Part shown: piece by piece, positions 44,995-45,726 of the stretch
Layout: each line of letters opens with the position of its first letter
Position numbering within the stretch: position 1 is the first letter of the stretch
Sequence record: LR595863.1
DNA from: Escherichia virus Lambda_4B5
DNA length: 48,141 bases
Direction: 5' to 3' (one strand)
Translations under genes and position numbers: made by a program
The notes under the pieces: model-generated
What the model was told of the DNA's origin: nothing
Seen by the model: only the letters and a program-made list of their open reading frames with translations
Databases searched by the model: none

Positions 44995-45726
44995 ATGCCA
45001 TGCATATGTTCTATCATTTTGGTTTTGAACTCGTTTGATATCCGGCTTGGTAAAGAAAAAATCTCTCTAAAAAAAGGAAGTGTTGTTGCTATAGAATACA
45101 ATTTAAAAGTTTTCTTTTCTTCAAATAAAGATAATATAATGATCGTGGATATTGAAGAGAAAACAGTTAATGACTTCTTTAAAAACAATACACTCTCACC
45201 TTTTTCTGTAAGAAGATTTTATTCAGCATACTTGATAGTAAACTGTACAGACTATTCATTGTTAAAGAACTTGATAGGTTGCTTGAATTGTGATGGTGAA
45301 ACTACGGCTGTAGTTAAAAATTCAATATTATTTGCATGTCTTGCTATTTTATCCTCGGAAAAAATGTTTCAGAGTTTTTTGTTTGGGTGTCTTAATAGTT
45401 TAGGAAGCAAAGTTAAGGCTATTATTCACTCGGACATATCTGCAGCATGGAGACTTTGTGATATTTCTTCAAGACTATGTCTGAGTGAAAGTTTGTTAAA
45501 AAGAAAACTAAAACACGAAGGCTTATCATTTAGCAAATTAATTCTTGAAGAACGAATGGTGATGGCTGAAAGGTTATTAAGCTACAATTTCTATCCTGTT
45601 GGGAAAGTTGCTAAAATATGTGGTTATGAAAGCGCGTCATATTTTATAAGTGTTTTCAGAAGATATTTTGGTGTTCCCCCCCATGAATATTCATCAAGAT
45701 TTTTTTTAGAAAAAGGCAAGATGTAA
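44995..45726 (+). CDS. AraC/XylS-family transcriptional regulator (GadX / YdeO / AppY-like)
   Basis: C-terminal double HTH (WRLCDISSRLCLSESLLKRKLKHEGLSFSKLILEERMVMAERLL...ICGYESASYFISVFRRYFGVPPHEY); very AT-rich; start uncertain (GTG 44986 or ATG 44995). Confidence 0.8.
   Translation: MPCICSIILVLNSFDIRLGKEKISLKKGSVVAIEYNLKVFFSSNKDNIMIVDIEEKTVNDFFKNNTLSPFSVRRFYSAYLIVNCTDYSLLKNLIGCLNCDGETTAVVKNSILFACLAILSSEKMFQSFLFGCLNSLGSKVKAIIHSDISAAWRLCDISSRLCLSESLLKRKLKHEGLSFSKLILEERMVMAERLLSYNFYPVGKVAKICGYESASYFISVFRRYFGVPPHEYSSRFFLEKGKM

What the first reader, a model, noticed from the sequence alone, without database searches (positions are those of the whole stretch)
44995..45726. AraC-family (GadX/YdeO/AppY-like) regulator as late-region cargo
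A very AT-rich gene between Q/tR' and the lysis cassette encodes a protein whose C-terminal double helix-turn-helix resembles the E. coli acid-resistance activators GadX, YdeO and AppY. Prophage-encoded AraC-like regulators of this kind are known to rewire host acid resistance and virulence regulons. It occupies the slot where Stx phages carry toxin genes.
Basis: partly seen in the sequence, partly recalled or inferred. Interest (0 to 1): 0.6.

Follow-up and report, generated by a model that had tools for sequence, protein, structure and literature searches.

The report
Phage-borne PatE/GadW-like AraC regulator gene
A lambda-like E. coli phage carries, between its late-gene antiterminator and its lysis genes, a self-contained AT-rich gene for an uncharacterised transcription factor whose closest studied relatives (PatE, PsrA/B, AppY, GadW) switch on the host's acid-resistance genes; it is a new member of a known kind, not a new kind of system.

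Summary
44995-45726 (+) is a real 243-aa gene. It has 31% GC against 50% for the window, a double AraC-type helix-turn-helix (Pfam HTH_18, 2.8e-15) and evolves under purifying selection (dN/dS 0.21-0.27). It lies inside a 3.06-kb cargo segment (42826-45882) between Q with a tR'-like terminator and the holin.

The protein belongs to the GadW/AppY/YdeO/PatE/Psr clade (100% bootstrap). It is sister to the probable PatE orthologue of O157 Sakai (53% overall, 72% in the DNA-binding domain). It is not an orthologue of YdeO or GadX, because it falls far below both NCBIfam cut-offs.

It has the anatomy of a moron: a conserved promoter-like element with a TATACTT -10, a Shine-Dalgarno sequence and its own terminator. 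Relatives sit in the same Q-to-holin slot behind three other Q types.

This subfamily occurs in about 18% of complete E. coli genomes and in inducible phages such as 1H12, where it is annotated as hypothetical. I found no study of this gene.

The most likely function is activation of the gadE/hdeAB acid-resistance regulon. This is inferred by analogy and was not tested. The neighbouring gene is RudS_vir, a tested tRNA 4-thiouridine desulfidase, so a role as local regulator of the cassette remains a rival.

The parts
42451..42843 (+). Q antiterminator. PGAP starts it at about 42466. Homology to K-12 DLP12 quuD ends at 42825, which marks the left edge of the cargo segment.
   Evidence: Pfam Phage_antitermQ 2.5e-51; annotation in an identical prophage; blastn boundaries against DLP12.
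42942..42973 (+). tR'-like intrinsic terminator: a 9-bp GC-rich stem followed by a run of 8 T. It is also positioned to end the convergent blc transcript.
   Evidence: Terminator scan; RNA fold -19.1 kcal/mol, z = -4.3, 0 of 200 shuffles as stable.
43000..43524 (-). Blc-type outer-membrane lipocalin, the first gene of the cassette, antisense to late transcription.
   Evidence: Pfam Lipocalin_2 2.2e-43; NCBIfam Blc subfamily 315.5 bits against a cut-off of 267.
43717..44676 (+). RudS_vir-type protein, a fusion of a TudS [4Fe-4S] desulfidase domain and DUF1722, immediately upstream of the AraC gene.
   Evidence: Pfam 2-thiour_desulf 3.6e-40 and DUF1722 1.3e-40. The module is 99.9% identical to phage 1H12, where this ORF is H3V29_gp66. 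That protein is the RudS_vir tested in PMC11417400.
44721..44772 (.). Promoter-like hexamers just after the rudS stop: TTTACA-16-TATGAT on + (44721-44748, conserved in the three alleles) and a mirror match on -. Together they form an inverted repeat, TTTACAA...TTTGTAAA. It may be a promoter or a regulator binding site.
   Evidence: Promoter scan, 10 of 12 on both strands; the + strand element is almost invariant across the three alleles aligned. Function is not shown.
44930..44958 (+). Putative dedicated promoter of the AraC gene: ATGGCA-17-TATACT, with C at -13.
   Evidence: Promoter scan. The TATACTT -10 and the TGGC -35 are conserved in the 82%, 76%, 62% and 54% homologues and upstream of Sakai ECs_0287. 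In L012 the equivalent is TTGGCA-18-TATACT (10 of 12).
44984..44989 (+). Shine-Dalgarno sequence AGGTGG, 5 nt before the ATG.
   Evidence: Read from the sequence. CAGGTGG is conserved in five of the six upstream regions compared; ECs_0287 has GGGGGG instead.
44995..45390 (+). AraC-family regulator, N-terminal beta/alpha regulatory or dimerisation domain (residues 1-132).
   Evidence: AlphaFold2 model, pLDDT 91, strands 3-54 and helices 87-132. The full-length fold resembles CsvR, Rns and ToxT. This domain is 39% identical to the PatE-like protein and 28% to GadW.
45391..45726 (+). AraC-family regulator, C-terminal double helix-turn-helix DNA-binding domain (residues 133-235), a short tail and the stop codon.
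   Evidence: Pfam HTH_18 and HTH_AraC; GadX DNA-binding domain 3mkl at 5e-21 by sequence and rmsd 1.2 A, TM 0.88-0.91 by fold; 72% identical to the PatE-like DNA-binding domain.
45788..45820 (+). Intrinsic-terminator-like hairpin (ACGCCAG...CTGGCGT) with a T-rich tail, 62 nt after the stop codon and before the holin.
   Evidence: Terminator scan. The fold is weak: -12.5 kcal/mol, z = -1.6. An analogous terminator follows the P0014 homologue in L012.
45894..47064 (+). Lysis cassette: class II (phage 21 type) holin 45894-46109, RrrD-type lysozyme 46109-46606, Rz 46591-47064 with embedded Rz1. Homology to DLP12 resumes at 45883.
   Evidence: Pfam Phage_holin_2_1 3e-35, Phage_lysozyme 1.3e-45, Phage_lysis 2.8e-54; blastn boundaries.

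Best explanation
The gene is a moron: a self-contained promoter-gene-terminator unit carried in the Q-to-holin slot of a functional lambda-like phage. It encodes a two-domain AraC/XylS activator of the GadW/AppY/YdeO/PatE/Psr clade.

Shown:
- family and clade membership;
- the fold;
- a near-identical first recognition helix (SESLLKRKL) and a very similar second one (SYFISVFRRYFGV) compared with PatE-like, Psr-like, GadW, GadX, AppY and YdeO;
- purifying selection;
- a conserved upstream promoter-like element;
- recurrent placement behind four different Q genes.

Inferred:
- In the lysogen the AT-rich gene is probably held down by H-NS. It would be transcribed from its own promoter, whose TATACTT -10 with C at -13 looks sigma-S-like, mainly in stationary phase or under stress, as reported for patE.
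- The protein then binds AT-rich sites at host promoters such as gadE and hdeAB. This would activate or de-silence the glutamate-dependent acid-resistance (AR2) regulon. In LEE-positive hosts it would also repress type III secretion through GadE.
- During lytic growth, Q-modified polymerase from pR' would read through tR', the cassette and the gene's own terminator. The gene would then also be co-transcribed with the late operon.
For: - Domains and family.
- Clade: an NJ tree puts the window protein with P0010 and P0011 (100%), then P0013 (99%). This group is sister to ECs_0287 plus P0014 (100%). All sit inside the GadW/AppY/YdeO/Psr clade (100%), apart from GadX/EnvY/AdiY.
- Identities: 53% to ECs_0287, 47% to the annotated 195-aa Sakai psrA product ECs_1087 (41% to the full-length Psr-like protein P0057), 35% to GadW, 30% to AppY and 28% to YdeO.
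- Recognition helices: near identical across the clade.
- Structure: pLDDT 91. The DNA-binding domain superposes on GadX at 1.2 A, and the full length resembles CsvR, Rns and ToxT.
- Every characterised member of the clade acts on gadE/hdeA. For PatE, PsrA/B, AppY, GadW and YdeO see PMC10877973 and PMC10057817.
- Selection: dN/dS 0.21-0.27.
- Moron anatomy and its conservation.
- Independence from blc and rudS: homologues P0013 and P0014 sit alone between Q and the holin.
- Same slot as psrA in Sakai Sp4.
- Prevalence: 996 of 5426 complete genomes carry the subfamily, and 108 carry this allele. It is present in induced phages.
- ECs_0287 rises 2.9 log2 units in early stationary phase (PMC2241611).
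Against: - No target, binding site or phenotype was tested, and none can be tested with these tools.
- The N-terminal domain is only 39% identical to the PatE-like protein, so signal input may differ.
- Specificity positions in the second recognition helix vary between clade members (A214, I218, S219 here; V, T, Y in the PatE-like protein), so target overlap may be partial.
- The equation of ECs_0287 with PatE (Z0321) is inferred from position only.
- The sigma-S reading of the promoter rests on a recalled consensus.
- The terminator after the gene folds weakly (z = -1.6).
- About 94% of genomes with this subfamily also carry blc and rudS next to it (941 against 996). That is equally compatible with a local regulatory role.
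Confidence: 0.55

Rival explanations
1. It is the dedicated local regulator of the three-gene cassette. The AraC protein would control the divergent blc and rudS promoters, and possibly its own, so that the lipocalin and the tRNA 4-thiouridine desulfidase are made under a particular stress. Host acid-resistance genes would not be its main targets.
For: - The trio is inherited as a unit. 941 genomes carry at least 80% of the 3.8-kb module, against 996 that carry the AraC subfamily gene.
- The trio occurs in DLP12-like and Qin-like backbones as well as lambda-like ones.
- No terminator was found between rudS and the AraC gene.
- A conserved inverted repeat with promoter-like hexamers lies at 44721-44772.
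- RudS genes elsewhere sit next to regulators (PMC11417400).
Against: - The next relatives (62% and 54% identical) occupy the same Q-to-holin slot without blc or rudS.
- PatE-like, AppY and PsrA also lack those neighbours.
- All studied clade members act in trans on host genes.
- blc and rudS are much less AT-rich and less diverged than the AraC gene, which suggests a separate history.
Confidence: 0.2
2. It is a late-phase phage function. The gene is kept in the Q-to-holin slot because it must be expressed with the late operon. It would reprogramme host or phage transcription during lytic growth, for example affecting lysis timing, burst size or superinfection, rather than serving the lysogen.
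For: Clade members are placed immediately downstream of Q in at least four different Q contexts: the PF06530 Q here, the PF03589 and PF06323 Q genes in L011 and L012, and the Q of Sakai Sp4. The gene is on the late-transcript strand, so Q-modified polymerase would read through it.
Against: - The gene has its own conserved promoter-like element and terminator, which is the hallmark of lysogen-expressed morons.
- PatE-like and AppY genes also occur at prophage ends in defective prophages that can no longer grow lytically, and they are still functional there (PMC10057817).
- The Q-to-S slot is a general hot spot for cargo such as stx, nmpC and tRNAs.
Confidence: 0.1
3. It is a silenced passenger. 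The AT-rich gene would be fully repressed by H-NS and contribute nothing measurable, persisting only by hitch-hiking with the phage.
For: The gene has 31% GC and its leader 27-30% GC, which is typical of H-NS-bound xenogeneic DNA. Its dN/dS is two to three times that of its neighbours.
Against: - A dN/dS of 0.21-0.27 over dS of 0.3-0.6 is clear purifying selection.
- The ORF is intact in all three divergent alleles examined and in more distant homologues.
- The promoter and Shine-Dalgarno sequence are conserved down to 53% protein identity.
- Related genes (patE, psrA, appY) are expressed and have phenotypes.
Confidence: 0.1

Closest known systems
PatE (Z0321, OI-8) of EHEC O157:H7, represented here by Sakai ECs_0287
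   Same: - It is the closest characterised relative: 53% identity over the full length, 72% in the DNA-binding domain, and a 100%-supported sister clade.
- It is prophage-encoded and of similar length (247 aa against 243).
- The first recognition helix, SESLLKRKL, is identical.
- The upstream TGGCA...TATACTT promoter-like element is shared, and a G-rich ribosome-binding stretch lies at the same spacing.
- A close PatE-like homologue (P0014) sits in the same Q-to-holin slot.
   Different: - The N-terminal domain is only 39% identical.
- In Sakai, ECs_0287 lies at the far end of the degraded prophage Sp1 next to an IS remnant, not between Q and S.
- It has no blc or rudS neighbours.
- That ECs_0287 is PatE is inferred from its position in the thrW prophage, not verified by accession.
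- PatE's targets (gadE, gadBC, hdeAB, LEE genes; PMC10877973) are untested for the window protein.
PsrA/PsrB, the prophage-encoded secretion regulators of EHEC O157:H7 (Sakai ECs_1087 is called psrA in PMC13502914)
   Same: The same slot: ECs_1087 lies downstream of the Sp4 antiterminator and upstream of the tRNA and lysis region. It belongs to the same clade (73% bootstrap for the wider group), is an AT-rich prophage cargo gene, and shares the MxxxCSVI N-terminus and the ISVF second recognition helix.
   Different: Identity is 47% over the C-terminal 161 residues and 41% over the full length. The neighbours differ: a CAAX protease, tRNAs and pchA rather than blc and rudS. The Psr link with type III effector loci has no counterpart in this window.
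[quoted passage not shown]
   Same: Full-length homology including the N-terminal domain, at 35%, 30% and 28% identity. They form one clade with 100% bootstrap. AppY is itself cargo of the DLP12 prophage (PMC10057817).
   Different: The NCBIfam equivalog cut-offs are missed by a wide margin: YdeO 112.7 against 348, GadX 98.7 against 500. The protein is therefore not an orthologue of any of them. The loci and upstream signals differ: EvgAS for ydeO, gadY for gadW/gadX.
Rns/CsvR (ETEC) and ToxT (Vibrio cholerae), fatty-acid-responsive AraC virulence regulators
   Same: They are the best full-length structural matches (Foldseek E about 1e-10, about 250 aligned columns) and the best full-length solved relatives by sequence (1e-18 to 1e-11). 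The two-domain architecture and size are the same.
   Different: Identity is only 17-22%. TM is 0.40-0.44 with rmsd of about 15 A, so the modelled domain arrangement differs or the N-terminal domains superpose poorly. The fatty-acid-binding residues were not examined. The regulons (pili, toxin) are unrelated.
Late-region cargo (morons) of lambdoid phages: stx in Stx phages, nmpC in DLP12, bor/iss
   Same: It occupies the Q-to-S slot. Relative to K-12 DLP12, the segment 42826-45882 replaces the nmpC segment exactly between quuD and essD. It has its own promoter-like element and terminator.
   Different: The cargo is a transcription factor together with a tRNA-modifying enzyme and a lipocalin, not a toxin or a porin.

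Membership tests
AraC/XylS family of transcription regulators | A C-terminal domain of about 100 residues with two helix-turn-helix motifs. | tested here: met
   Pfam HTH_18 56.8 bits (cut-off 33.6) and HTH_AraC 47.6 bits (cut-off 26.6). The model superposes on the GadX DNA-binding domain at rmsd 1.2 A and on MarA and AraC DNA-binding domains at 1.7-2.0 A.
GadW/AppY/YdeO/PatE/Psr clade (regulators of the acid-resistance island) | Full-length homology that includes the N-terminal domain, and monophyly with the named members. | tested here: met
   Alignments to GadW, AppY, YdeO and ECs_0287 run from residue 1 to about 235. The N-terminal motif MxxxCS(V/I)I is shared. The NJ clade has 100% bootstrap, separate from GadX/EnvY/AdiY.
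GadW/AppY/YdeO/PatE/Psr clade (regulators of the acid-resistance island) | Binds and activates the gadE and/or hdeAB promoters and raises acid survival. | not testable with these tools
   This needs EMSA or ChIP, reporter fusions and acid-challenge assays. Only conservation of the recognition helices could be shown.
YdeO orthologue (NCBIfam NF007407) and GadX orthologue (NF007432) | A score at or above the curated equivalog cut-off. | tested here: not met
   YdeO 112.7 bits against 348; GadX 98.7 bits against 500.
PatE orthologue | High identity and the same clade as Z0321/ECs_0287. | tested here: not met
   53% identity. The window protein falls in the sister clade, not with ECs_0287 and P0014. 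It is a paralogous subfamily.
Psr family (PsrA/PsrB) | Close homology to PsrA/B (which are 90% identical to each other) and location on effector-carrying prophages. | tested here: not met
   41-47% identity to ECs_1087 and P0057. No type III effector genes were noticed among the window genes examined. The Q-to-lysis slot is shared.
Phage moron (independently transcribed lysogenic-conversion unit) | Its own promoter upstream and terminator downstream, inserted between genes of a phage operon, with composition unlike the phage. | tested here: inconclusive
   A promoter-like element at 44930-44958 is conserved down to 53% homologues. A terminator-like hairpin lies at 45788-45820. GC is 31% against 50%. 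These are pattern matches plus conservation, with no transcript data, and the terminator fold is weak (z = -1.6).
Rns/ToxT-type fatty-acid-sensing AraC regulators | A ligand pocket between the domains, with the carboxylate-binding residues (H20 and R75 in Rns). | not tested
   Only overall fold similarity was obtained. Pocket residues could not be mapped reliably at 17-22% identity.

The most novel reading that the evidence does not exclude
The regulator is the control element of a portable three-gene stress module made of a Blc lipocalin, the RudS tRNA 4-thiouridine desulfidase and the AraC protein. Through one phage-borne, sigma-S-type-promoted transcription factor it would couple tRNA de-thiolation (near-UV and stringent-response signalling) and envelope lipid handling to the host acid-resistance (GadE) circuit. 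About one in six E. coli would then carry a phage-delivered switch linking the epitranscriptome to the acid-stress response.
Probability: 0.12. Interest if true: 0.65.

Novelty: new member of a known kind. Interest (0 to 1): 0.4.

Why it matters
Prophage-encoded AraC regulators such as PatE, PsrA/B and AppY are the best-documented way in which phages plug into the E. coli acid-resistance and virulence circuitry. All the work so far has been in O157 or K-12.

This subfamily is uncharacterised. PHROG 1450 lists it as unknown function, and phage records annotate it as a hypothetical protein. Yet it is present in about 18% of complete E. coli genomes (996 of 5426) and is carried by phages that are still inducible.

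If it feeds into gadE/hdeAB like its relatives, acid tolerance could differ between otherwise similar strains simply through lysogeny, including the many human isolates among the carriers listed.

Its tight linkage to RudS_vir, a tested tRNA s4U desulfidase, offers a tractable route to the physiological role of phage-borne RudS, which is currently unknown.

Tried and rejected
- I looked for a named orthologue. The NCBIfam equivalogs YdeO, GadX, HilD and HilC are all far below their cut-offs, so I rejected orthology.
- I tried to read the primary PatE, PsrB and Psr papers (PMC3416394, PMC4288888, doi 10.1111/j.1365-2958.2011.07650.x). None is held. I could not check whether this subfamily is one of the 'six additional Psr homologs' mentioned in PMC10877973.
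- The old EDL933 record NC_002655.2 is not in the collection. The mapping of Z0321 to ECs_0287 therefore stays an inference.
- I looked for PsrB in Sakai Sp10 (1.92-1.995 Mb) and found no AraC gene there. I used ECs_1087 and the 237-aa cluster member P0057 instead.
- A repeat search of 42800-45900 for candidate operator repeats gave only short matches at chance level.
- Rfam gave nothing in the cassette except a sub-threshold hit on the tR' hairpin.
- PADLOC gave no hit for any of the three cassette proteins, so I dropped a defence-system reading.
- Literature searches for the cassette (blc with ybgA and prophage; lipocalin with AraC and moron) found no description of it.
- I searched for a citable sigma-S -10 consensus and found none usable. 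The sigma-S reading rests on my recollection of Weber et al. 2005 and Typas et al. 2007.
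Full report
**The observation**

The ORF list shows a 246-codon frame at 44986-45726 on the + strand. Three things support the ATG as the real start:
- PGAP annotates exactly these 732 nt in identical prophages, as WP_001112170.1, 'helix-turn-helix domain-containing protein'.
- An AGGTGG Shine-Dalgarno sequence lies 5 nt upstream and overlaps the alternative GTG.
- All homologues align from residue 1 with the motif MxxxCS(V/I)I.

Pfam finds HTH_18 (2.8e-15) and HTH_AraC (1.6e-12) in residues 158-234. The gene has 31.3% GC (GC3 26%), against 50.1% for the window and 43-47% for its neighbours.

**Surroundings**

The window is a complete lambda-like phage genome, linearised at cos. 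The order is terminase, head and tail genes to J; an IS4-type transposase; a tail fibre; a sitABCD-like transporter; int/xis; exo/bet/gam; cIII with its Rfam thermoregulator; sieB; a cI-like repressor; O/P; the nin region; Q; cargo; S/R/Rz; bor/iss.

Compared with K-12 DLP12, homology stops at 42825 inside the 3' end of Q and resumes at 45883, just before the holin. So 42826-45882 is a 3.06-kb cargo segment that sits where DLP12 has nmpC. In order it contains:
- a strong tR'-like terminator, 42942-42973 (z = -4.3);
- a Blc-type lipocalin on the opposite strand, 43000-43524;
- a 319-aa TudS-DUF1722 fusion, 43717-44676;
- a 318-bp intergenic region of 27-30% GC;
- the AraC gene;
- a terminator-like hairpin, 45788-45820.

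**What the protein is**

By sequence the best NCBIfam matches are YdeO (full length, 112.7 bits), GadX, HilD and HilC. All are far below their equivalog cut-offs. The best solved structure is the GadX DNA-binding domain, followed by CsvR, Rns and ToxT.

Pairwise identities are:

| Protein | Identity | Span |
|---|---|---|
| O157 Sakai ECs_0287 | 53% | full length |
| Sakai ECs_1087 | 47% | C-terminal 161 residues |
| Full-length Psr-like protein P0057 | 41% | full length |
| GadW | 35% | full length |
| AppY | 30% | full length |
| YdeO | 28% | full length |
| GadX | 39% | C-terminal half only |

ECs_0287 is the only AraC-type gene in the thrW prophage and is therefore the probable PatE/Z0321 orthologue. 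This is inferred, not verified. ECs_1087 is called psrA in PMC13502914.

An NJ tree with 100 bootstraps groups the window protein with its 82% and 75% alleles (100%), then with a 62% homologue (99%). That group is sister to the PatE-like pair (100%). All of these lie inside a GadW/AppY/YdeO/Psr clade (100%) that is distinct from GadX/EnvY/AdiY.

The DNA-binding domain is 72% identical to the PatE-like protein. The N-terminal domain is only 39% identical. The first recognition helix (SESLLKRKL) is identical to the PatE-like protein and nearly so across the clade. The second (SYFISVFRRYFGV) differs only at a few specificity positions.

An AlphaFold2 model built from 32 homologues is confident (pLDDT 91, pTM 0.85). 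Its C-terminal domain superposes on GadX 3mkl at 1.2 A. The whole chain matches CsvR, Rns and ToxT best (E about 1e-10) but with TM of only 0.44, so the domain arrangement should not be over-read.

**Evidence that it is a working, independently expressed unit**

Between the three alleles examined (this window, EC931 and H8), dN/dS for the AraC gene is 0.21-0.27 at dS of 0.31-0.59. That is clear purifying selection. It is weaker than for Q, blc, rudS and the holin, which range from 0.04 to 0.27 and are mostly 0.06-0.17.

A promoter-like element, ATGGCA-17-TATACT (44930-44958), lies about 37 nt before the ATG. Its -10 TATACTT and -35 TGGC are conserved upstream of the 82%, 76%, 62% and 54% homologues and of ECs_0287. 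The CAGGTGG Shine-Dalgarno sequence is conserved in all of these except ECs_0287, which has GGGGGG. In L012 the promoter-like element reads TTGGCA-18-TATACT and sits between a tR'-like terminator and the gene, which is again followed by its own terminator.

The CTATACTT form with C at -13 resembles the sigma-S-preferred -10. This rests on my recollection of Weber et al. 2005 and Typas et al. 2007, since no citable source was found. It fits two reports: patE is expressed more in stationary phase (PMC10877973), and ECs_0287 rises 2.9 log2 units in early stationary phase (PMC2241611).

**Distribution**

- The exact allele (at least 99% nt) is in 108 of 5426 complete E. coli genomes.
- Alleles at 80-90% nt are in about 920 more.
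- 996 genomes (18%) hold at least 80% of the gene.
- 941 genomes hold at least 80% of the 3.8-kb stretch from Q through blc, rudS and araC to the holin. The trio is therefore inherited together in about 94% of cases.

The trio occurs in lambda-like (integrated at icd), DLP12-like and Qin-like backbones. The exact protein was seen on at least 1000 contigs. Ten induced phages carry it, including 1H12, Lambda_2E9 and the ev series. There it is annotated as 'hypothetical protein' or 'putative transcription regulator'. PHROGs places it in phrog_1450, 'unknown function'.

More distant homologues, P0013 (62%) and P0014 (54%), sit alone between Q and the holin, behind Q proteins of other Pfam families (PF03589 and PF06323). 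psrA in Sakai Sp4 is also just downstream of Q. The slot is therefore a recurrent home for this clade, independent of blc and rudS.

**Mechanism**

The best-supported reading is a trans-acting activator or anti-silencer. It would be expressed from its own promoter in the lysogen and, by Q-dependent read-through, during lytic growth. Its likely targets are AT-rich host promoters of the acid fitness island (gadE, hdeAB), as shown for PatE, PsrB, PsrA and AppY (PMC10877973, PMC10057817).

Family, fold, conservation of the recognition helices, purifying selection, promoter conservation and slot are shown. H-NS silencing, sigma-S dependence, the targets and the phenotype are inferred. I put this at about 0.55.

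The main rival, at about 0.2, is a local regulator of the blc-rudS cassette. The 94% linkage, the absence of a terminator between rudS and araC, and the conserved inverted repeat at 44721-44772 favour it. The solitary homologues and the trans-acting habits of the clade count against it. A purely late-phase phage role and a silent passenger are less likely, at about 0.1 each.

**The neighbouring gene**

The ORF at 43717-44676 corresponds to H3V29_gp66 of phage 1H12. That protein is the 'RudS_vir' cloned in PMC11417400. In that study, over-expression of RudS genes lowered tRNA 4-thiouridine 4.7- to 26-fold. This is already published. Its adjacency to an acid-regulon-type AraC regulator was not discussed in the passages I read.

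**Comparison and novelty**

The protein works like, and is a clade member with, PatE, Psr, AppY, GadW and YdeO. It is not an orthologue of any of them: equivalog cut-offs are not met, and it is sister to the PatE-like clade rather than within it.

I found no paper on this gene or on the cassette. I could not read Tree et al. 2011, which reportedly lists six further Psr homologues, so a prior name cannot be excluded.

Verdict: a new member of a known kind. Interest is moderate (0.4). The gene is not surprising to a specialist. It is, however, widespread and uncharacterised, it travels on live phages, and it is linked to a tRNA-modification enzyme, which makes it a good experimental target.

Noticed in passing
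window 43717-44676 (+): A 319-aa TudS (DUF523) plus DUF1722 fusion. It corresponds to gp66 of Escherichia phage 1H12, which is 'RudS_vir' in PMC11417400, a tRNA 4-thiouridine desulfidase tested by over-expression. About 17% of complete E. coli genomes carry this phage-borne module, although K-12 is said to lack RudS.
   Followed up: partly
window 43000-43524 (-): A Blc-type outer-membrane lipocalin that meets the NCBIfam Blc subfamily cut-off. It is a paralogue of chromosomal blc, placed antisense to the late transcript directly after the tR'-like terminator, which could serve both strands.
   Followed up: partly
window 23196-26645 (-): A four-gene sitABCD-like Mn/Fe ABC transporter in the b-region of the phage: a ZnuA-type binding protein, an ATPase and two ABC-3 permeases. 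It is a second lysogenic-conversion cargo.
   Followed up: no
window 19052-20398 (-): An IS4-family transposase (Nterm_IS4 plus DDE_Tnp_1) inserted between the tail-tip gene J and the side tail fibre gene (20496-22523). The related phage records are about 1.4 kb shorter than the window, which would fit this insertion.
   Followed up: no
window 44721-44772: An inverted repeat, TTTACAA...TTTGTAAA, with promoter-like hexamers on both strands just after the rudS stop codon. The + strand element (44721-44748) is almost invariant across three diverged alleles, whereas the middle of the same intergenic region is full of indels. It may be an operator or a divergent promoter.
   Followed up: partly
window 35754-36653 (-) and 27333-28103 (+): Two ORFs of 299 and 256 aa with no Pfam match. 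The first lies between sieB and the cI-like repressor, in the position of rexAB in lambda, and could be an exclusion or defence gene.
   Followed up: no
window 47096-47437 (-): A Bor/Iss lipoprotein gene after Rz, annotated 'increased serum survival lipoprotein Iss' in identical prophages. This phage therefore carries at least five cargo loci: sit, blc, rudS, araC and iss.
   Followed up: no
L002 28651-29391 (O157 Sakai Sp4, ECs_1087): The Sakai annotation of psrA (195 aa) appears to be short at the N-terminus. The frame is open upstream and encodes the conserved MVVVCSVIMV N-terminus of the 237-aa form found in other genomes.
   Followed up: partly
window 33658-33716 (-): The lambda cIII thermoregulator RNA element (Rfam RF01804, 88.5 bits). 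It is the only Rfam family above its gathering score in the window.
   Followed up: no
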